Below are positions 10,569 through 24,354 of a stretch of DNA of 32,000 nt, piece by piece (the first letter of the stretch is position 1; every line of letters begins with the position of its first letter). This stretch comes from Trichodesmium erythraeum IMS101 (GTDB lineage: Bacteria; Cyanobacteriota; Cyanobacteriia; Cyanobacteriales; Microcoleaceae): contig NC_008312.1 in the NCBI RefSeq assembly GCF_000014265.1, forward strand, positions 5,670,001-5,702,000. Direction: 5' to 3'. The position numbers and the translations under genes are program-made. The notes beneath the pieces were generated by a model. It worked only from the letters and a program-made list of their open reading frames with translations, was not told the origin of the DNA and did not search any database.

Positions 10569-11183
10569 CACTCCTGTTCCAAAGCAAAAATACTTTTTTT
10601 TTACACTTATATTGAGTGATTTCAAAGTTAGATATATTGTTTATAAACTAACTTTTACTCCTGTTTTACTTTTAAAAAACTGGCAGAGCTCACAAAGCAA
10701 AATATCTGGTTTTTGTTGAATTTTATGTTCTTGTTAAAAATCAAAATTATCCTCAAATTTAGTTTTTAGCCTAACTCCTGTTCCAAAGCAAAAATACTTT
10801 TTTTACACTTATATTGAGTGATTTCAAAGTTAGATATATTGTTTATAAACTAACTTTTACTCCTGTTTTACTTTTAAAAAACTGGCAGAACTCACAAAGC
10901 AAAATATCTGGTTTTTGTTGAATTTTATGTTCTTGTTAAAAATCAAAATTATCCTCAAATTTAGTTTTTAGCCTAACTCCTGTTCCAAAGCAAAAATACT
11001 TTTTTTACACTTATATTGAGTGATTTCAAAGTTAGATATATTGTTTATAAACTAACTTTTACTCCTGTTTTACTTTTAAAAAACTGGCAGAACTCACAAA
11101 GCAAAATATCTGGTTTTTGTTGAATTTTATGTTCTTGTTAAAAATCAAAATTATCCTCAATTTTAGTCTTTAGCCTGACTCCA
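10569..11183. repeat. three tandem copies of a ~202-204 bp unit, noncoding
   Basis: The anchor CTCCTGTTCCAAAGCAAAAATAC recurs at 10571, 10775 and 10977. Copies 2 and 3 are virtually identical. The last unit diverges at its end (ttttagtctttagcctgactcc). Confidence 0.95.
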
Positions 11184-11559
11184 TGTTATTTTAAATTGAC
11201 AGTTCCTGTCCTGTGTTTTGATAATGCTAATGAAATTAGGGAAAAAGTCAAACTTACTTGAAATTTTTGGTAATACATCAAAAAAGTATTAGGAAAGTGA
11301 TCAAGTTATATCAAGGACCGGAAGCGAGCACTAAACCAGAGCTTTATACTGCTGTGCTACCCTTGCAGCTAAAATCTAAATCAAATTGAAATAGTTAACC
11401 ACCAACCTAACTGTGATTTCAGTTTGCTCCCAAACCTTGACAAGTTTATTCTCAAGTTTATTCTCAAGTTTATTCTGTCGTTGATGCCTGAGACCATTCT
11501 TTTGTCTGACTATACCATTAGTTCACTCTAATTGTGGAGTTCGCTATGTCACCAAGATA

Positions 11560-17117: not shown

Positions 17118-18737
17118 ATGAACAAAAAACAGGAATCATTCTTCTGGAAATCAATAAATAGCCAAGCATCAAAATTCAGAAAAAATCTCGGAAAAAAAGC
17201 AATAAATGTTAGGGATTCAATCAGGGATAATTATTGGGAAGCTTCTCAAAATAAAGCTTCAGAAATGGAAGAATTTATCAGCAATAAAGCATCAGATGTT
17301 AGCAAATATTTTAGAGAAACTGCTAAAGAATCTACTTTAGGGAAAAAGCAAATTAATTCAGAAGTCTCGGAAGAAACAGAAAATAATTTAGAACAAGAAG
17401 AAATATATCATATATTTGTTGCTTATCATATTGCTAGTCAGGGAGGTACTCAGAAAGTTACTCTTAAATCTGGTAAAAGCTATAATGTGAGAATTCGTTC
17501 TAATAGTACGGAAGGTTCTACTTTAAGATTACAAAAATGCGGTTTACAAGGTAATGATGCTTTCCTGGTTTTACATACTTTTTATAATCCCGAATTAAAC
17601 CTAGACCGCCGGATGAATAGTTTAGTAATTCGTGCATCAATTTATGAAAGAAGTAAAACTAGATGTTTAGAAGCTTACAGCAGAATTAATTCTGGTTTAC
17701 ATACCTATGATTTGCCAGCACTAAATCTATTGGATTTTATTGTAGAATTATCAAATATAGATTCACTTATTGGTTTACGCTACAGAATTGCTAGTGAAAA
17801 TTCTCGGTGGGTTGCCATTGATAAAGGTTTAGAACAAGTTTTATCTTATGGTAATTTAATGGAAGTTCAAAAGCAAAATTTAAAAGGTATTTATCTATAT
17901 ATTAAATCTGGAGAACCTCTACCTGATTTTGCTAATTTTAGACAATTAAATGCAATTATTTTAAATTCAGCGATCGCTTCGGAGTTAAAAAATAAATATT
18001 TATTAGCAAGTGCAACTTCTATGGCGATGAAAATAGATATATTAATTATCAATCTGATTTATAGTAATACGGAAATAGATCAGAGTAAATATCGTAAATA
18101 TTTATCTATTTATCAACAACTTAGGGAAGAAGGAAAAGTAATAGATAATAAAATGATACAAAATTTAGATGGTGTAATTTTTAAATCAGAAATTCCTCGA
18201 ATTTGTAAAATCGTATATCAGCTTTTAAGAGATAGATATTTTGAATCAAATTTGGAAAGAAATATCAATAATTTTAATGCAGCTTTTATGAAATTTAAGA
18301 AGGCAGAAAAGTTTGTTAAACAAGCAACAAATTCAGAAAAAACTACAAATAGCTTTGGTAATATTATTATTCAAACAGGTATGTTAATTCAGGAAGTTGA
18401 TGATGCTGTAGTTAGTGGTGGTGTTGGAATATTAGCAGGAGTAAAAGTATTGAAAGGTGGAGAAGCTTTAATTGGTGCAGTAGGTTTAGTGGCGATCGCC
18501 TCGACTTTAGAAATGAGTATACAAGAGAAAATTAAATTAGGAATTACTGAGGAAGGTAATTTTTCTGGGGAAGTTGCTTATAGTGAAATGATGAATATTA
18601 TTAATCAAGTTAGTTGGGTTATTGCTGATGGAGAAGAAAGCAAATTAGAGCAGGAAATTGATATTTTTAAGATATTTAAGGGAAATAAAAATAGAAAGCA
18701 AATTTTGAAGGACTTGGAAACTAAGTTGTATAGTTAG
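17118..18737 (+). CDS. hypothetical protein (orphan), K/S/E-rich N-terminus, C-terminal glycine-zipper hydrophobic segment
   Basis: 539-aa uninterrupted ORF in a very AT-rich region, containing two HIP1 octamers. Residues about 95-160 (GGTQKVTLKSGKSYNVRIRSNSTEGSTLRLQKCGLQGNDAFLVLH) weakly resemble a DnaJ C-terminal beta-repeat. The segment VVSGGVGILAGVKVLKGGEALIGAVGLVAIAS (nt ~18408-18515) is a GxxxG/glycine-zipper-like stretch. I recognise no catalytic motif. Confidence 0.6.
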   Translation: MNKKQESFFWKSINSQASKFRKNLGKKAINVRDSIRDNYWEASQNKASEMEEFISNKASDVSKYFRETAKESTLGKKQINSEVSEETENNLEQEEIYHIFVAYHIASQGGTQKVTLKSGKSYNVRIRSNSTEGSTLRLQKCGLQGNDAFLVLHTFYNPELNLDRRMNSLVIRASIYERSKTRCLEAYSRINSGLHTYDLPALNLLDFIVELSNIDSLIGLRYRIASENSRWVAIDKGLEQVLSYGNLMEVQKQNLKGIYLYIKSGEPLPDFANFRQLNAIILNSAIASELKNKYLLASATSMAMKIDILIINLIYSNTEIDQSKYRKYLSIYQQLREEGKVIDNKMIQNLDGVIFKSEIPRICKIVYQLLRDRYFESNLERNINNFNAAFMKFKKAEKFVKQATNSEKTTNSFGNIIIQTGMLIQEVDDAVVSGGVGILAGVKVLKGGEALIGAVGLVAIASTLEMSIQEKIKLGITEEGNFSGEVAYSEMMNIINQVSWVIADGEESKLEQEIDIFKIFKGNKNRKQILKDLETKLYS

Positions 18738-19608: not shown

Positions 19609-20343
19609 ATGTCAGAATCAATAAAAGCACAATATCCTATTATTTCTTATAATCATATACTCTCAGAACTTTCTGTTAATAGTCAAGATCCATGTGAAGT
19701 TATTCGTGAGTTAATCTCTAATTCTTATGATGCTGAGGCTTCTCAAATTCAAATATACCCAATTACAACAGAAAGAGAAAAGGGATTTATATTTTTTGAT
19801 GATGGCATTGGTTTAAATGAAACAGAAGAAACTAATGGCATTACTCCTTATCGTGCATTTTTTTCAATTGGAAAATCTACAAAAGTTCAAGGAGATTATA
19901 TTGGCTATAAATGTCAAGGTTCTAAGCTTTGCTTTGCATCTAAAAAAATTACTATTATTACGAAATGTTCAGGTGAACCCTCGTGGCGATATATATCAAT
20001 AGATAATCCACAAAAAAATATTAATGAGTCATTTAATATTTCTTCTCAGCATAGTGATCAACCTTGGAGTATTCTAAGCAAACTTTTTCCTATACTAAAA
20101 AGTTCAACAAAAAACATACTAGAAAAATTAGATAAAGATTTTTTTGACCGTAATTTTAAGAGTCAAGGAACAATGATTATTTTGGAAGGACTACACATTG
20201 CAAACTTTAATAAATTTTATTCTACAGATGAGTATGCACGAGACGACTGGTCTTATTTAAAACATTATATCCGCTTCAACACAAGACACGGTGATATGAG
20301 AATACTTAGACCTGATAAAACAGGTTTTCCCCAAAGAAAATAA
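19609..20343 (+). CDS. GHKL (MORC/Hsp90/MutL-type, HATPase_c_3-like) ATPase, N-terminal part, ends at an in-frame TAA
   Basis: Bergerat-fold motifs in the right order and spacing: N-box ELISNSYDAEA (ExxxNxxDA), G1 box FFDDGIGL (DxGxG), and G2-like IGYKCQGSK. Confidence 0.75.
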   Translation: MSESIKAQYPIISYNHILSELSVNSQDPCEVIRELISNSYDAEASQIQIYPITTEREKGFIFFDDGIGLNETEETNGITPYRAFFSIGKSTKVQGDYIGYKCQGSKLCFASKKITIITKCSGEPSWRYISIDNPQKNINESFNISSQHSDQPWSILSKLFPILKSSTKNILEKLDKDFFDRNFKSQGTMIILEGLHIANFNKFYSTDEYARDDWSYLKHYIRFNTRHGDMRILRPDKTGFPQRK

Positions 20344-20361
20344 GCTTTATTTAAAGGAAGT

Positions 20362-21576
20362 ATGGGATACAATGATCAATGCAAACTGTTTCTATGGTCT
20401 AATACAAAAAAGGAATATACATTAAAAGAAATTGAATCGGGATATCCTTATTTACAAAAACCAAATGACAATGAAGAAATAAAAATAAGCACTCCTGCTA
20501 AAGTATCAAGCCTTGAGAATGGTAATTTTTCAGGGCGTTATTGTTCTACTTTTAAGTATCAAGAAACAATCTATTGTATCACTTTAGCAATAGATGGAAA
20601 TAGAAGAGCATTAAATAATTATAAAGAGCTAGGTAGACAAGGGAAAGATAATAGCAAGTCCGGAATTAGATTAGTAGATCAAAGAGGAACATTCATTTCA
20701 TCTGAAGGTGTGAAAATTTGTTCTTACAATAAAATTTTTGAGCATTTATTATTAGAAAAATATTCCATTCTTGCAGAGAATAAAGTTCAACGCCATTATA
20801 TTTTGATCATCAACGGTAGTTTTAACGTAGTCACAAATAGAAATTCTTTAACTGATACTTCTAAACAAATTTTAGAAGACCCTCCATTTATAGAAAAAAT
20901 CAAAAATTTTTTAGATGAAGCTGAACGAAACGTTGTTGTTTTTCGTGAATTGATTGAAAGATTAAAGAAAGAAAATCAAGAGAAAAAATTCGAAAAATAT
21001 ACTGAGAGGTTAAAAAAACTTAAAGAAAGTATTCAATATAGACCAAGGTTTAAAGTTAATAACATAGAACAATTAAAAGATAAATGGATTATAGCACCAG
21101 AACACGGAGAAGAGCATTGGGTAGGAGCATTATATACAATGTTTTCTCATTTAGTTACTGTTAACTCGCCTTGTCAAAAATTATGGGTACGCCCAAGAAC
21201 TTTTTGTGGTAATGGTCTTGATAGCATAGCTGTTCCTTTAGAAGAAAATAGTTTAAAAGAAACGGTTCATGAAGGACTAGAATATAAGTATACTTTTTCC
21301 GCTACTGATCAATATAACCATCCTTTTATTCAGACTAATTGGATCGTTTGTTGGGATATGTCTATGCCAGAAAAAGGAGCAAAAATTGAGGATGCTTATG
21401 AATATTTTGGATATGTTTCTTTTGAGAATGAAGAATTAACTAACATTGGCTATGAAATTGTTGATATTGAACGTCTAAAAGGTGAGAGTCATTCTTCCCC
21501 GATTAAAGTAATTAGCTTAAAGAAATTACTAAATGAGACATTTGATTGTAAATGGACTACTCCACCCACCAAATAA
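20362..21576 (+). CDS. C-terminal continuation of the GHKL ATPase gene (same frame): coiled coil plus PD-(D/E)xK-like module
   Basis: It is in the same reading frame as 19609-20343, separated only by TAA plus 6 sense codons. Features: coiled-coil-like FRELIERLKKENQEKKFEKYTERLKKLKESIQ, then EEHWVGALYTMFSHLV...GLDSIAV...GLEYKYTF...IVCWD, which fits an E...D...ExK restriction-endonuclease-fold pattern. That reading is inference. Confidence 0.6.
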   Translation: MGYNDQCKLFLWSNTKKEYTLKEIESGYPYLQKPNDNEEIKISTPAKVSSLENGNFSGRYCSTFKYQETIYCITLAIDGNRRALNNYKELGRQGKDNSKSGIRLVDQRGTFISSEGVKICSYNKIFEHLLLEKYSILAENKVQRHYILIINGSFNVVTNRNSLTDTSKQILEDPPFIEKIKNFLDEAERNVVVFRELIERLKKENQEKKFEKYTERLKKLKESIQYRPRFKVNNIEQLKDKWIIAPEHGEEHWVGALYTMFSHLVTVNSPCQKLWVRPRTFCGNGLDSIAVPLEENSLKETVHEGLEYKYTFSATDQYNHPFIQTNWIVCWDMSMPEKGAKIEDAYEYFGYVSFENEELTNIGYEIVDIERLKGESHSSPIKVISLKKLLNETFDCKWTTPPTK

Positions 21577-22358: not shown

Positions 22359-23648
22359 CAGGACTTACGCAGAGAAACTATATATAGCGTATATTAAATA
22401 GAGCGATCGCTAAAAAAATCATAGCCATCCCCCAGCTTTTATTCATTAAAAACAATCCATAAAAACTTAAACAACTGTCATTTTAATTGTCGGATATTTG
22501 AGTTCAGAGACTAGATATTTAGATGATAATTGATGTTTTAGTTGATCAATAGTTTTTCCCAAATTATTGGCAATTTTTTTCAAATTATTCCATACCAACA
22601 TAGCACAAGCAATGTGATTTTTTTGAATTTTTCCCCGACGACATTGACAAAATTCAAGTCCTGTTAACTGTTTAATTTCTCTGTGGAATTCCTCAATTTT
22701 CCACCTAGTTTGAATCTCAAACTCAACATCATCTGTACTTTGACAACTAAGGTCATTAGTAGCAATATATTCTGCTGAAGTTTGTGGAAACACTACCCCA
22801 GAATAATTTAACTTTTTTATCTCTAGGAAAACCTTTTATTTTAATAATCTTTCCTGATGTTAATTCCCACTCATTCCATTTTAATTCTTCCAGTTTTTGA
22901 TACTTTTTTACACCCCCACTATCGTCTACTAAACCATTGCTTTTTAAAGGGCAATAGTAAATTTTACCTAAATTATCTATTAAAGCCATTAGTCTTTGGG
23001 TTGCATACCAGCTATCCATTAATACTGTTTTGACTGGTATTTTCTGATTTTCCACCATATCAACCAACCTCAACTTCTACATTATCTATTTTACTCTTTT
23101 CATCATTTTCTGGATTATAAATACGATAATCTATTATCCAGAATCGCTCTATTTTAGGATGAAAATATAAGCAATTAACTATTCCTATCCCACTCACTAC
23201 CCCATGTTCATTTCCACTGTACTGACGGCGGACAAGTTCAATTTTTAGGGAATATTTTTTATTAATAACTGTATCATCAGGCCTTTAAATAACCATCTTC
23301 AGAATTGACAATTTCTTTCCTGACATTTTGCCACAAAATTTCTGAACCTAAATCAACACTTTTCAAATAACGATTAATTTGATCGTGGCTAATTTTTTCC
23401 ACCTTGGATCGGCAAGATTTGTTAGAGTATAATTTTTATGACTACTTATTAAATACTGAAAATATTTGATATAATCAAAGTTCATATTAAAGGTATTACA
23501 AGTAATTTATATAATATTAATCAAGCATACCAAATAATTTGGGCTCAAGCAAATTTTTAAGGTTTTTGTATTTTGCTGTTCAAGCGATCGCTAAATAGAT
23601 AAATCTTTAAGGGTAAACACTATATATAGTGTCTTTGCGTAAGTCCTG
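22359..23648 (-). mobile_element. IS element (IS4/IS701-superfamily DDE type), 1290 bp, transposase frameshifted
   Basis: Terminal inverted repeats CAGGACTTACGCAGAGAAACTATATATAGCGT (left) and the reverse complement of the right end, CAGGACTTACGCAAAGACACTATATATAGTGT, matching at about 29/32 positions. There is a 5-bp direct duplication ATCAA at 22354-22358 and 23649-23653. Removing the element and one ATCAA restores the uninterrupted unit sequence seen at 24281-24300. Confidence 0.88.
22467..23485 (-). pseudogene. DDE transposase (DDE_Tnp_1-like), multiple frameshifts
   Basis: Pieces in different frames: MNFDYIKYFQYLISSHKNYTLTNLA.., ..ISHDQINRYLKSVDLGSEILWQNVRKEI.., ..DDTVINKKYSLKIELVRRQYSGNEHGVVSGIGIVNCLYF.., MDSWYATQRLMALIDNLGKIYYCPLKSN.., and RWKIEEFHREIKQLTGLE (the YREK-type C-terminal signature). 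Confidence 0.8.
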
Positions 23649-24062
23649 ATCAAAAACAATTAACCCTCAAACCCCAAAATACCCAGAGACCATTTAGTTC
23701 GCCTATGAGTATTTTAGGAAAGCGGATGGCGAGAGTCGAAACTTTTGAATTATATTTATGCTACATTTTGTATTAAAAAATGTAAGACATAAGCACTCTC
23801 CTACTCCTTAAAAAGACCTTTTCCCCTAAACCCTAATTAGTATATATCTTAAACTATAGCGCTATAGTTTTTTTTCTCTTCACATCAAAAAAAATTAACC
23901 CTCAAACCCCAAAATACCCAGAGACCATTTAGTTCGCCTATGAGTATTTTAGGAAAGCGGATGGCGAGAGTCGAAACTTTTGAATTATATTTATGCTACA
24001 TTTTGTATTAAAAAATGTAAGACATAAGCACTCTCCTATTCCTTAAAAAGACCTTTTCCCCT

Positions 24063-24209
24063 AAACCCTAATTAGTATATATTTGAAACTATAGCGCTAT
24101 CCTACTCCTTTAAACCCTAATTAGTATATATTTGAAACTATAGCGCTATCCTACTCCTTTAAACCCTAATTAGTATATATTTGAAACTATAGCGCTATCC
24201 TACTCCTTA
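24063..24209. repeat. 3 x 49-bp tandem sub-repeat inside the third 235-bp unit
   Basis: AAACCCTAATTAGTATATATTTGAAACTATAGCGCTATCCTACTCCTTT starts at 24063, 24112 and 24161, so the period is exactly 49. Confidence 0.92.
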
Positions 24210-24354
24210 AAAAGACCTTTTCCCCTAAACCCTAATTAGTATATATTTAAAACTATAGCGCTATAGTTTTTTTTCTCTTCACATCAAAAACAATTAACCC
24301 TCAAACCCCAAAATACCCAGAGACCATTTAGTTCACCTCTGAGTATTTTAAGAA

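What the first reader, a model, noticed from the sequence alone, without database searches (positions are those of the whole stretch)
19609..21576. MORC/GHKL-type ATPase joined through a coiled coil to a PD-(D/E)xK-like module: candidate single-polypeptide defence nuclease
The N-terminus has the Bergerat ATP-binding motifs: ELISNSYDAEA, FFDDGIGL and IGYKCQGSK. Read through the TAA, the ~655-aa product continues with a lysine/glutamate-rich heptad-like segment (ELIERLKKENQEKKFEKYTERLKKLKE). It ends with EEHW...GLDSIAV...(about 16 aa)...GLEYKYTF...IVCWD (nt ~21090-21400), which has the order and spacing of an E / D / ExK restriction-endonuclease-fold active site. Prokaryotic MORC-like GHKL ATPases are known from comparative genomics to sit in restriction and conflict systems. 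A GHKL clamp fused directly to a nuclease in a tRNA-adjacent island would be an ATP-gated DNA-targeting effector. I recognise no other partner genes nearby, such as a methylase or helicase.
Basis: partly seen in the sequence, partly recalled or inferred. Interest (0 to 1): 0.8.

Follow-up and report, generated by a model that had tools for sequence, protein, structure and literature searches.

The report
Broken GHKL ATPase–putative nuclease gene
This is a stop-codon-broken copy, in Trichodesmium erythraeum IMS101, of a single gene that fuses a MORC-like ATP-driven clamp to a probable DNA-cutting domain, and it resembles known one-protein anti-phage nucleases while belonging to an uncharacterised family.

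Summary
Window 19609-21576 is one 655-codon frame broken by a TAA at 20341-20343; the two halves are Tery_3702 and Tery_3703 of Trichodesmium erythraeum IMS101. Other Trichodesmium genomes carry intact alleles of 650-656 aa with GAA at that codon.

The N-terminal ~425 aa are a real GHKL ATPase plus S5/transducer module (Pfam HATPase_c_3; Foldseek best hit MORC3, 5e-13). A pair of helices leads to a 180-aa C-terminal domain. Its E502, D538, E558-x-K560 and N570-H571 are conserved in 47 homologues and in distant relatives, on a predicted helix-strand-strand-strand order typical of PD-(D/E)xK nucleases. The nuclease fold is not confirmed: the domain matches nothing in Pfam, PADLOC, PDB sequences, or Foldseek PDB/BFVD, despite pLDDT 95.

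The "tRNA-adjacent island" idea fails. The locus, tRNA-Leu included, is syntenic across Trichodesmium, Okeania and Dapis between housekeeping genes. Forty-six homologous loci show no conserved partner.

A conflict role is supported indirectly. Five Trichodesmium alleles give dN/dS of 1.2-4.9, against 0-0.5 next door. A second, independent frameshift allele exists. Taxonomic distribution is patchy.

The closest known analogues are paraMORC3 and the GHKL-Shedu protein VcSduA, but membership is not shown. Verdict: a new variant of a known kind, dead or split in this strain.

The parts
19609..20343 (+). ORF1 (Tery_3702, 244 aa): the GHKL/Bergerat ATPase domain, ended by the premature stop
   Evidence: Pfam HATPase_c_3 E=6.8e-11, 42.8 bits against a cut-off of 25. 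Identity with Tery_3702. 100% identical at the protein level to the first 244 aa of intact P0001.
19708..19731 (+). GHKL motif I (N-box), ELISNSYD: E34 is the putative catalytic base and N38 the putative Mg2+ ligand
   Evidence: E34, N38 and D41 are invariant in 47 homologues. Aligned to the MutL N-box by HMMER. Coordinates.
19798..19812 (+). GHKL motif II (G1 box), DDGIG
   Evidence: D64, G66 and G68 are invariant. Coordinates.
19903..19926 (+). GHKL motif III (G2 box/ATP lid region), GYKCQGSK
   Evidence: G99 Y K C Q G104 and K106 are invariant. Coordinates.
20341..20343 (+). Premature TAA stop at codon 245 (GAA = Glu in intact alleles); it separates the GHKL domain from its S5 domain
   Evidence: The same allele occurs in GBRTRLIN201 and on 33 contigs.
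20344..21576 (+). Remainder of the ancestral reading frame; the annotated ORF2 (Tery_3703, 404 aa) starts at ATG 20362
   Evidence: Collinear with residues 246-655 of P0001.
20356..20880 (+). S5/transducer-like middle domain (aa ~250-424)
   Evidence: AlphaFold2 model pLDDT 87. Foldseek alignments of 460-540 columns to MORC3, MORC2, SMCHD1, Hsp90 and GyrB ATPase modules, which include this domain.
20881..21039 (+). Helical linker (helices aa 425-441 and 443-477), Lys/Glu-rich; a possible coiled-coil or lever arm
   Evidence: DSSP on the model. The best a/d hydrophobic register scores only 9 of 15, so coiled-coil pairing is inferred, not shown. Highest density of amino-acid polymorphism: 9 N, 0 S in 38 codons.
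21040..21573 (+). C-terminal domain (aa 478-655), a putative PD-(D/E)xK-type nuclease followed by a beta-rich subdomain
   Evidence: Model pLDDT 95, pTM 0.90. Only 123 representatives in 1.84 billion proteins carry it. Full-length hits carry it at the C-terminus, and every Pfam domain found in the 20 distant hits scanned was GHKL, apart from one added NYN domain. No fold or profile match.
21109..21114 (+). E501-E502 at the start of the first helix of the C-terminal domain (candidate metal-binding Glu)
   Evidence: Invariant in A1 and A2. E502 is kept in distant relatives wherever that segment aligns.
21220..21222 (+). D538 at the N-terminus of a beta-strand (GxD-S-I-A), the candidate 'D' of the PD motif
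   Evidence: Invariant, including in green-algal and ~565-aa-family relatives.
21280..21288 (+). E558-Y-K560 on the next beta-strand, the candidate (D/E)xK
   Evidence: Invariant in all relatives. Secondary structure.
21316..21321 (+). N570-H571, a family-specific conserved pair after the ExK strand
   Evidence: Invariant; role unknown.

Best explanation
Window 19609-21576 is a nonsense-disrupted allele of a single-polypeptide enzyme.

Shown:
- The enzyme has four parts: a MORC-like GHKL ATPase, an S5/transducer domain, a long helical linker, and a ~180-aa C-terminal domain.
- The disruption is GAA to TAA at codon 245.

Inferred for the intact protein:
- It works as a dimer. ATP binding at E34/N38/D64-G68 closes the N-terminal gate, as in MORC, MutL and GyrB.
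- The S5 domains and linker helices then form a clamp around DNA.
- Clamp closure licenses a Mg2+-dependent PD-(D/E)xK-type active site (E502, D538, E558, K560) to cut the captured DNA.
- The likely role is stand-alone defence against invading DNA, analogous to the GHKL-Shedu protein VcSduA (paraMORC3-type). In VcSduA both the ATPase Glu and the nuclease Lys are needed for phage defence.
- Fast-evolving surface positions, especially in the linker helix and C-terminal domain, fit an arms race with phage factors.

In IMS101 the stop cuts the GHKL domain from its S5 partner, so the gene is most likely inactive here. It is a loss-of-function polymorphism of a dispensable immune gene.
For: Architecture:
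- Pfam HATPase_c_3.
- Full-length model with pLDDT 87.
- Foldseek hits to MORC3 (4.8e-13), Hsp90, MORC2, SMCHD1 and GyrB over 460-540 columns.
- All Bergerat motifs are invariant.

Catalytic-looking C-terminal domain:
- E502, D538, E558, K560, N570, H571, W582 and D595 are invariant in 47 sequences of 42-78% identity.
- D538, the ExK and the NH pair are kept in every distant relative aligned, and E502 wherever that segment aligns. These relatives include green algae and a sister family of at least 1,535 clusters, which aligns over its full length at hhalign probability 99.8%, E=6e-28.
- The residues fall on helix, strand, strand (D at its start) and strand (ExK) in a model with pLDDT 95.

Analogy:
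- VcSduA has a GHKL N-terminus and a PD-(D/E)xK C-terminus. E27A and K557A abolish defence, and similar proteins were "previously annotated as paraMORC3" (PMC12137116).
- paraMORC3 is GHKL + S5 + an E-D-ExK nuclease, often stand-alone (PMC2292703).

Conflict signatures:
- dN/dS is 1.17-4.94 in all 10 pairs of 5 Trichodesmium alleles, against 0-0.47 in the adjacent gene at similar dS.
- There are 70 nonsynonymous and 9 synonymous polymorphic codons, against 12 and 12 next door (Fisher p=1.5e-4).
- Two independent inactivating lesions exist: the TAA here, and a 10-bp duplication at codon ~112 in metagenome contigs L080/L081.
- Distribution is patchy: 65 loci found by a motif-limited scan of one genome per 185,579 species, in cyanobacteria, Myxococcota, beta- and gamma-proteobacteria, Planctomycetota and Verrucomicrobiota, with strain-variable copies in Pseudomonas aeruginosa and Burkholderia.
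- Some copies sit beside DUF4238, integrase and IS66 genes, an AAA_15/21 ATPase pair, RadC or Uma2.
Against: - No profile or fold evidence supports the nuclease assignment. Pfam and PADLOC are silent for all members. PDB sequence profiles are silent. Foldseek finds nothing significant in PDB or BFVD; the best PD-(D/E)xK-containing hit, SPARDA 9jsz_J, has E=0.44 and probability 0.09.
- The helix normally found between the ExK strand and the fourth strand is reduced to one turn.
- Genomic context is not that of a defence island. Most neighbours are housekeeping genes and no family occurs in more than 4 of 136 neighbours.
- The Trichodesmium locus is vertically inherited between a chorismate-lyase-like gene and accC.
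- No copies occur on plasmids or phages.
- dN/dS near 1-1.7 among intact alleles is also compatible with relaxed constraint. The pairwise values are not independent, and several alleles are MAG consensus sequences.
- No experiment exists for this family.
Confidence: 0.5

Rival explanations
1. The protein is a chromosomal DNA-maintenance enzyme, not an immune protein. It would be a MutL/MORC-like ATP-driven clamp with its own endonuclease, acting in repair, recombination or chromosome organisation in filamentous cyanobacteria and some other lineages.
For: - The locus is conserved and vertically inherited between housekeeping genes in Trichodesmium, Okeania and Dapis.
- A paralogous clade lies next to alaS.
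- Neighbours in 46 loci are mostly housekeeping genes.
- Homologues occur in green algae (Mantoniella, Apatococcus).
- MutL itself is a GHKL ATPase plus endonuclease (established knowledge).
- Iyer et al. speculated that stand-alone paraMORC3 proteins may have functions independent of restriction-modification systems.
Against: - It was found in only 65 loci among genomes of 185,579 species, with a patchy spread across phyla.
- Two independent knock-out alleles segregate in Trichodesmium.
- Amino-acid polymorphism far exceeds that of the adjacent gene, with dN/dS above 1.
- Several species carry two copies.
- None of this is expected for a core maintenance factor.
Confidence: 0.2
2. The C-terminal domain is not a nuclease. 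It would be a new-fold dimerisation, ligand-binding or other catalytic domain, and the protein would act as an Hsp90/sacsin-like ATP-dependent sensor or remodeller whose output is not DNA cleavage.
For: - A model with pLDDT 95 has no significant structural neighbour in PDB or BFVD.
- No profile hit was found anywhere.
- hhalign against the PD-(D/E)xK family Uma2 gave probability 0.3%.
- The best, insignificant Foldseek hits are tyrosine phosphatases.
- Hsp90 is as good a structural match for the N-terminal part as MORC.
Against: - The invariant set E, D, ExK plus N-H and D is what a metal-dependent phosphodiesterase site looks like. It occupies the canonical secondary-structure positions.
- PD-(D/E)xK domains are notoriously missed by sequence and 3Di searches (established knowledge, e.g. 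Steczkiewicz et al. 2012, recalled from memory).
- GHKL-nuclease fusions are a recurrent, experimentally validated design.
Confidence: 0.15
3. The IMS101 allele is not dead. Tery_3702 (the GHKL domain) and Tery_3703 (S5, linker and C-terminal domain, re-initiated at ATG 20362 behind an AGGA-like sequence) would reassemble as a functional two-subunit enzyme.
For: - The ATG at 20362 lies 18 nt after the stop and is preceded by AAAGGAAGT.
- All catalytic residues are intact in both halves.
- The split allele is widespread in nature, being found in GBRTRLIN201 and on 33 contigs.
- Only 3 residues downstream of the stop are unique to IMS101 among the 14 Trichodesmium proteins compared.
Against: - The break lies between the GHKL and S5 domains, which together form the ATPase site in all studied GHKL enzymes (established knowledge).
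- The AGGA and ATG are simply coding sequence (…KGSMG…) in intact alleles.
- No full-length homologue was seen as a natural two-gene split. The only other split is the frameshifted Trichodesmium allele in L080/L081.
- Trichodesmium has a second, clearly destructive frameshift allele, which points to decay.
Confidence: 0.1
4. The gene is a solitary restriction endonuclease of the BbrUII/HgiDII type, that is, a GHKL-containing type II enzyme whose methyltransferase is elsewhere or lost.
For: - The best NCBIfam hit of P0001 is NF050001, the BbrUII/HgiDII family restriction enzyme (E=1.2e-5).
- A sister-family member hits a PADLOC REase_II model at E=9.5e-4.
Against: - Both hits cover only the GHKL N-terminus: aa 31-176 at 24 bits against a cut-off of 550, and aa 20-82.
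- At most one or two of the 136 neighbours look like DNA methyltransferases; each methyltransferase model matched a single member.
- The C-terminal domain has no similarity to any REase model.
Confidence: 0.05

Closest known systems
VcSduA / type I-D Shedu (GHKL-Shedu) of Vibrio cholerae (Adams et al. 2025, PMC12137116; Gu et al. 2023/2025)
   Same: - A single polypeptide with an N-terminal GHKL ATPase, an Hsp90/MORC-like middle domain and a C-terminal E/D/ExK nuclease-type domain.
- The functionally tested residues lie at very similar positions: E27 and K557 in VcSduA, E34 and K560 here.
- It is a stand-alone gene.
   Different: - The defining Shedu domain DUF4263 is not detectable here. Pfam found it at E<=1 in none of the 47 members, and PADLOC SduA models gave no hit.
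- Foldseek against the PDB returned no significant hit of any kind.
- No Vibrio protein appears among the 120 best relatives of a gamma-proteobacterial member, and no plasmid copies were found.
- The VcSduA sequence itself could not be obtained for a direct comparison.
paraMORC3 family (Iyer, Abhiman & Aravind 2008, PMC2292703)
   Same: - GHKL + S5 + a conserved C-terminal globular domain with E-D-ExK motifs.
- Frequently stand-alone, without conserved neighbours.
- Sporadic distribution suggesting lateral transfer.
   Different: - paraMORC3 was described as prevalent in proteobacteria and Bacteroidetes, and its C-terminal domain recovered RecB-family nucleases in profile searches. Here no nuclease profile is recovered.
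- Identity of this family, or of its ~565-aa sister family, with paraMORC3 could not be checked, because no member lists are held.
Eukaryotic and prokaryotic MORC ATPases (MORC2, MORC3), SMCHD1
   Same: The best structural matches for aa ~1-470 are GHKL + S5 ATPase modules that dimerise on ATP and clamp DNA.
   Different: - There are no CW, chromo or SMC-hinge domains.
- The S5 signature GhXhhpXXRhl is not exactly present: G352-IRLVDQ-R359 has one residue fewer.
- The protein carries its own putative catalytic C-terminal domain.
MutL (GHKL ATPase with a C-terminal endonuclease)
   Same: An ATP-gated GHKL dimer coupled to a metal-dependent endonuclease in one chain. The N-box aligns to MutL.
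   Different: - The similarity is confined to ~50 residues of the N-box and lies far below the family cut-offs.
- The C-terminal domain lacks the MutL DQHA(x)2E(x)4E motif and does not match MutL C-terminal structures.

Membership tests
GHKL (Bergerat-fold) ATPase superfamily | Motif I ExxxNxxD, motif II DxGxG, a glycine-rich motif III, and a Pfam HATPase_c/HATPase_c_3 match above the gathering score | tested here: met
   E34/N38/D41, D64/G66/G68 and G99…G104-S-K106 are invariant. HATPase_c_3 scores 42.8 bits against 25. All 47 members match.
GHKL (Bergerat-fold) ATPase superfamily | Bergerat fold followed by an S5/transducer domain, by structure comparison | tested here: met
   Foldseek hits to MORC3 6o1e (E=4.8e-13), Hsp90, MORC2, SMCHD1 and GyrB, with 460-540 aligned columns, using a model of pLDDT 87.
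MORC family sensu Iyer et al. 2008 | The specific GhXhhpXXRhl motif in the S5 domain | tested here: inconclusive
   The nearest match, G352-I-R-L-V-D-Q-R359-G, has one residue too few between G and R (sequence, read by eye). Hsp90 and GyrB score almost as well as MORC3.
Shedu (SduA), including type I-D GHKL-Shedu / VcSduA | C-terminal DUF4263 (PF14082) nuclease domain | tested here: not met
   Pfam found no DUF4263 hit at E<=1 in any of the 47 members or in the window halves. PADLOC SduA models gave no hit at E<=1. Foldseek against the PDB gave no significant hit.
Shedu (SduA), including type I-D GHKL-Shedu / VcSduA | Anti-phage activity that depends on the nuclease Lys and, for VcSduA, on the ATPase Glu | not testable with these tools
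   Requires expression and phage challenge. The equivalent residues here would be K560 and E34.
paraMORC3 (Iyer et al. 2008) | GHKL + S5 + a conserved C-terminal globular domain with an E-D-ExK motif, often a stand-alone gene | tested here: met
   Architecture. E502/D538/E558xK560 are invariant. No conserved neighbour in 46 loci.
paraMORC3 (Iyer et al. 2008) | The C-terminal domain recovers RecB-family nucleases in profile searches; sequence membership in the published family | tested here: not met
   Profile searches of the C-terminal domain against PDB sequences and 1.84 billion representatives recover only its own family. The published member list is not available.
PD-(D/E)xK (restriction-endonuclease-like) superfamily | Conserved acidic residue(s) and (D/E)xK placed on the alpha-beta-beta-beta(-alpha-beta) core: Glu in helix 1, Asp at the start of strand 2, ExK on strand 3 | tested here: met
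   Predicted elements in the numbering of the 184-aa C-terminal model (residue 1 = full-length residue 472): helix 31-42 (E30/E31), strands 56-58, 68-72 (D67) and 84-92 (E87, K89), and strand 107-113. Conservation.
PD-(D/E)xK (restriction-endonuclease-like) superfamily | Significant fold or profile similarity to a known member | tested here: not met
Defence-island gene | Homologues enriched next to known defence or mobile genes | tested here: inconclusive
   Some loci have such neighbours: DUF4238 + integrase + IS66, an AAA_15/21 pair + RadC, and Uma2 on both sides. Among 136 neighbours of 46 loci, however, the commonest families occur at most 4 times and most are housekeeping.
BbrUII/HgiDII restriction enzyme family (NF050001) | Full-length match above the curated cut-off | tested here: not met
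   24.1 bits against a cut-off of 550, covering aa 31-176 only.

The most novel reading that the evidence does not exclude
The ~180-aa C-terminal domain is a previously unclassified catalytic module. It would be either a strongly derived restriction-endonuclease-like fold or a new fold, with an E…D…ExK…NH…D active site.
- It is almost always found on a GHKL+S5 ATPase.
- It would define a large uncharacterised enzyme superfamily: the ~650-aa family here plus a ~565-aa sister family of at least 1,535 clusters.
- That superfamily spans cyanobacteria, Pseudomonas and Burkholderia, many other phyla and green algae.
- In Trichodesmium it evolves under diversifying selection.
- Its activity and target could differ from those of Shedu/paraMORC3.
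Probability: 0.2. Interest if true: 0.7.

Novelty: new variant of a known kind. Interest (0 to 1): 0.45.

Why it matters
Single-chain "ATP-gated clamp plus nuclease" proteins have only just been validated as phage defences, in VcSduA (2025).

This family has the same design, but no current defence-finder or domain library recognises its effector domain. Immune inventories of cyanobacteria would therefore miss it, including the bloom-forming nitrogen fixer Trichodesmium. The same applies to Pseudomonas and Burkholderia.

If the function is confirmed, the work would:
- add a new nuclease module to the GHKL-coupled defence repertoire;
- offer a natural series of alleles (intact, nonsense and frameshift, with strong amino-acid diversification) for studying how such genes are gained, diversified and lost in ocean populations;
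- extend the known prokaryote-to-eukaryote spread of MORC-like systems to green algae.

For this particular window the practical message is smaller. Tery_3702 and Tery_3703 are two pieces of one broken gene, not two genes.

Tried and rejected
1. Pfam, NCBIfam and PADLOC scans of the halves, the intact homologue, 47 family members and 20 distant relatives found only GHKL models, plus one N-terminal NYN domain in a green-algal relative. No DUF4263, NOV_C or other nuclease model was hit.

2. Profile searches of the C-terminal domain and of the sister family against PDB sequences gave nothing relevant.

3. Foldseek of a dedicated C-terminal model (pLDDT 95) against PDB and BFVD gave no hit below E=0.17. 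The top hits (Edc3/Sm-like chains, tyrosine phosphatases) are judged to be noise.

4. hhalign of the C-terminal domain against a small Uma2 (PD-(D/E)xK) alignment built from neighbouring genes gave probability 0.3%. This is uninformative.

5. Attempts to obtain VcSduA or GHKL-Shedu sequences for a direct comparison failed. The supplementary tables are truncated or not held, and a search from a gamma-proteobacterial member found no Vibrio protein among the best 120.

6. A partner gene was sought.
   - The 539-aa upstream ORF (Tery_3701) is syntenic only in Trichodesmium, Okeania and Dapis and is absent elsewhere. It has no family assignment and evolves under purifying selection, so it was rejected as an obligatory partner.
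   - The 874-aa ORF lying 80 bp upstream of the paralogous clade is alaS.

7. A diversity-generating-retroelement explanation for the clustered amino-acid changes was considered and rejected. The changes are spread over more than 1.1 kb and most are shared mosaically among alleles. No search for a template repeat was run.

8. Promoter and terminator scans were at chance level.

9. Model coordinates are not exposed to the scripting environment, so active-site geometry could not be checked.


Full report
**1. The observation**

Translating window 19609-21576 in one frame gives 655 codons interrupted once, by TAA at 20341-20343.

The window is Trichodesmium erythraeum IMS101. The two pieces are the annotated proteins Tery_3702 (244 aa) and Tery_3703 (404 aa, from ATG 20362). 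Identical proteins occur in the environmental genome GBRTRLIN201, and the 244-aa piece is recorded on 33 contigs, so the stop is a genuine natural allele.

T. erythraeum 21-75 has an intact 655-aa protein (P0001) at the syntenic position, with GAA at codon 245 and no indels. At least ten further Trichodesmium alleles of 650-656 aa are intact. More than 100 homologues of ~640-690 aa are collinear over the full length. In detail: this is one gene broken by a nonsense mutation.

**2. Anatomy**

An AlphaFold2 model of the intact protein, built with a 47-sequence alignment, has mean pLDDT 87.

- Residues ~1-245 are a Bergerat-fold ATPase. Pfam HATPase_c_3 gives E=7e-11, above the gathering score, and all 47 members match. 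E34, N38, D41, D64, G66, G68, G99, G104 and K106 are invariant.
- Residues ~250-424 are the S5/transducer domain. Foldseek aligns 460-540 columns to the ATPase modules of MORC3 (E=4.8e-13), Hsp90/HtpG, MORC2, SMCHD1 and GyrB.
- Residues 425-477 are two helices, the second 35 residues long and Lys/Glu-rich. Its heptad hydrophobicity is modest, 9 of 15 a/d positions in the best register, so coiled-coil pairing is plausible but inferred.
- Residues 478-655 form a separate domain. Modelled alone, it has pLDDT 95 and pTM 0.90.

**3. The C-terminal domain**

The case for a nuclease:

- E501, E502, D538, E558, K560, N570, H571, W582 and D595 are invariant in 47 sequences that are only 42-78% identical to the first.
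- D538, E558-x-K560, N570-H571, W582 and D595 persist in every distant relative aligned, and E502 persists wherever that segment aligns.
- In the model these residues lie at the start of a helix (E502), at the first residue of a beta-strand (D538), and on the next strand (E558, K560), followed by another strand. That is the order of the PD-(D/E)xK core.

The case against:

- The helix normally present before the fourth strand is reduced to one turn.
- No independent method recognises the domain. Pfam is silent at E<=1 for all members. PADLOC is silent. PDB sequence profiles are silent. Foldseek finds nothing below E=0.39 in the PDB or E=0.17 in BFVD.
- The only nuclease-containing entry among the top hits is a SPARDA chain at E=0.44 and probability 0.09.

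I therefore treat "PD-(D/E)xK-type nuclease" as the best reading at about 60-65%, not as a finding. I could not inspect the model coordinates.

**4. How widespread it is and what it is related to**

- A profile of the C-terminal domain, searched against 1.84 billion representative proteins, finds only 123 sequences. In full-length hits the domain is C-terminal. The only Pfam domains found in 20 distant hits scanned were GHKL, plus one N-terminal NYN domain.
- A profile-profile comparison links the whole protein, C-terminal domain included, to a much larger family of ~565-aa "ATP-binding proteins" from many phyla. That family has at least 1,535 clusters; the hhalign probability is 99.8%, E=6e-28, over 539 columns.
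- In a motif-limited scan of one genome for each of 185,579 species, the ~650-aa family occurs at 65 loci. Most are in filamentous cyanobacteria. Others are in Myxococcota, beta- and gamma-proteobacteria, Planctomycetota, Verrucomicrobiota and Desulfomonilaceae, and several species have two copies.
- A search from a Luteimonas member adds Pseudomonas aeruginosa, Burkholderia, Ralstonia and Xanthomonas.
- Distant members come from green algae: Mantoniella, and Apatococcus, where an NYN domain is added.
- No copy was found on 72,556 plasmids or 50,697 phage records.

**5. Genomic context**

The "tRNA-adjacent island" reading does not hold.

- In Trichodesmium, Okeania and Dapis the order is always: chorismate-lyase-like gene (-), a ~540-aa ORF (+), this gene (+), tRNA-Leu(gag) (-), biotin carboxylase accC (+).
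- The tRNA is therefore part of an old, vertically inherited neighbourhood. The Trichodesmium loci fetched contain no integrase.
- I took the nearest ORFs (136 in all) from 46 non-redundant homologous loci and scanned them against Pfam and PADLOC. No family occurs more than four times: Uma2 4, response regulators 3, integrase 2. Each DNA-methyltransferase model matched only one neighbour. Most neighbours are housekeeping genes such as alaS, enolase and murG-like genes.
- Individual loci do look like conflict or mobile regions. In Sorangium the gene sits beside DUF4238, an integrase fragment, RadC and IS66. In Kamptonema it sits beside an AAA_15/AAA_21 ATPase pair and RadC. One metagenome contig has Uma2 on both sides.
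- Two sister-family loci are likewise stand-alone.

The gene is thus a solitary unit without an obligatory partner, as Iyer et al. described for stand-alone paraMORC3 genes. Context alone neither proves nor excludes defence.

**6. Evolutionary signatures found here**

- IMS101 and strain 21-75 differ at 29 codons in this gene. Of these, 28 are amino-acid changes and 1 is silent, and all lie at or after codon 245. The flanking 9.4 kb is 99.7% identical.
- Across five Trichodesmium alleles with DNA available, all ten pairwise dN/dS values exceed 1 (1.17-4.94). The adjacent 539-aa gene gives 0-0.47 at the same dS.
- Polymorphic codons number 70 nonsynonymous and 9 synonymous, against 12 and 12 next door (Fisher p=1.5e-4). 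The density is highest in the linker helix and the C-terminal domain.
- Most variants are shared mosaically among alleles. Only three residues downstream of the stop are unique to IMS101.
- A second, independent knock-out exists. Ocean-metagenome contigs L080 and L081 carry a 10-bp tandem duplication (AAAAATTACT) at about codon 112 that frameshifts the GHKL domain.

Diversifying amino-acid evolution around an invariant catalytic core, together with recurrent loss of function, is what immune genes typically show. There are caveats. The alleles are few, some are MAG consensus sequences, the pairwise values are not independent, and values near 1 could reflect relaxed constraint.

**7. Mechanism**

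Shown: the domain architecture, the intact ATP-binding motifs, an invariant acidic/Lys/His constellation in the C-terminal domain, and the absence of a partner gene.

Inferred from established GHKL biology (MutL, GyrB, MORC, Hsp90) and from VcSduA:

- The protein is a dimer.
- ATP binding closes the N-terminal gate.
- The S5 domains and linker helices form a clamp on DNA.
- Clamp closure positions or activates two Mg2+-dependent active sites that cut the trapped DNA.

In VcSduA, E27A (ATPase) and K557A (nuclease) each abolish phage defence. The corresponding residues here are E34 and K560.

In IMS101 the stop separates the GHKL domain from the S5 domain that completes the ATPase, so the gene is most probably inactive. 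Re-initiation at ATG 20362, behind an AGGA-like sequence, could give a split enzyme, but I rate this at about 10%.

**8. Comparison with what is known**

The design is not new.

- Iyer, Abhiman and Aravind (2008) defined paraMORC3 as GHKL + S5 + an E-D-ExK nuclease, often stand-alone.
- Gu et al. listed GHKL-type N-terminal domains among type I-D Shedu proteins.
- Adams et al. (2025) showed experimentally that VcSduA defends against T1-like phages.

Membership is another matter.

- The defining Shedu domain DUF4263 was tested and not found.
- The paraMORC3 criterion of recovering RecB-like nucleases was not met.
- No Vibrio protein appears among close relatives.
- The family "works like" paraMORC3/VcSduA, as far as can be inferred, but it cannot be filed as a member.
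- It also fails the cut-offs for MutL and for the BbrUII/HgiDII restriction enzymes, where only the N-box matches.

**9. Verdict**

- This is a pseudogenised, or at best split, copy of an uncharacterised GHKL-S5-helix-putative-nuclease protein. It is a new variant of a known kind.
- Interest is moderate. A specialist would recognise the architecture. The unrecognised effector domain, the strong diversification with two natural knock-out alleles in an ecologically important cyanobacterium, and the presence in tractable pathogens and green algae make the family worth a targeted experiment.

Noticed in passing
window 20341-21576, compared with L001:10001-11968, L007, L008 and L009: There is an extreme excess of amino-acid changes between Trichodesmium alleles: 28 nonsynonymous to 1 synonymous between IMS101 and 21-75, all at or after the stop. 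dN/dS exceeds 1 in all 10 pairs. Polymorphic codons are 70 N and 9 S, against 12 and 12 in the neighbouring gene. The spectrum between IMS101 and 21-75 is rich in transversions (10 transitions, 22 transversions, counted by eye).
   Followed up: yes
L080:2182-4150 and L081:2182-4150 (ocean metagenome contigs): A second, independent inactivation of the same gene: a 10-bp tandem duplication (AAAAATTACT) at about codon 112 splits it into overlapping 123-aa and 549-aa ORFs. The proteins P0130 and P0133 (and P0003, its own 90% cluster) are such 5'-truncated calls.
   Followed up: yes
P0193/P0371/P0372 (Mantoniella beaufortii transcripts) and P0246/P0373/P0374 (Apatococcus fuscideae): Green-algal proteins carry the same C-terminal domain, with weak or clear GHKL hits where scanned. 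Some have an added N-terminal NYN domain and basic tails. This suggests transfer of the family between bacteria and Chlorophyta.
   Followed up: partly
window 17118-18737 (+), Tery_3701: A 539-aa ORF with no Pfam, PADLOC or convincing NCBIfam assignment. It is always immediately upstream of the GHKL gene in Trichodesmium, Okeania and Dapis but absent from that position in other carriers. It is under purifying selection (dN/dS 0-0.47). Its function is unknown.
   Followed up: partly
window 23649-24212: Tandem repeats lie between the gene and tRNA-Leu: a 235-bp unit in 1.9 copies (98% identical) followed by a 49-bp unit in 3.1 copies. The end of the 21-75 contig matches this array at three places.
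   Followed up: no
window 22467-23485 (- strand): A string of short ORFs of 40-108 aa looks like the remains of a larger gene, possibly an IS transposase. The two largest have no Pfam hit. ORFs of the same size (108 and 100 aa, - strand) lie downstream of the gene in L080.
   Followed up: partly
window ~10774-11190, compared with L001:1379-1591: IMS101 appears to carry an extra tandem copy of a ~210-bp segment relative to strain 21-75, giving overlapping BLAST matches at 10774-10984 and from 10976 onwards.
   Followed up: no
L033, L034, L035 (Microcoleaceae, Dapis): A paralogous clade, ~48% identical to the query, sits directly downstream of alaS (80 bp in two genomes). Dapis BLCC M172, Microcoleaceae MO_207.B10 and Microcoleus bin48 each carry two family members.
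   Followed up: partly
P0432, P0397-P0400, P0392, P0386: Members of the proteobacterial clade occur in Pseudomonas aeruginosa (67 member sequences), Burkholderia cenocepacia and B. contaminans, Ralstonia pseudosolanacearum and Xanthomonas axonopodis. All are annotated only as 'ATP-binding' or hypothetical proteins. These are tractable hosts for testing the family.
   Followed up: no
A5 neighbour set: Three of the 136 neighbouring ORFs match a PADLOC SduA (DUF4263) model at E of about 2e-6 or weaker. I did not determine which ORFs these are, or whether they are Uma2-like proteins cross-matching.
   Followed up: no
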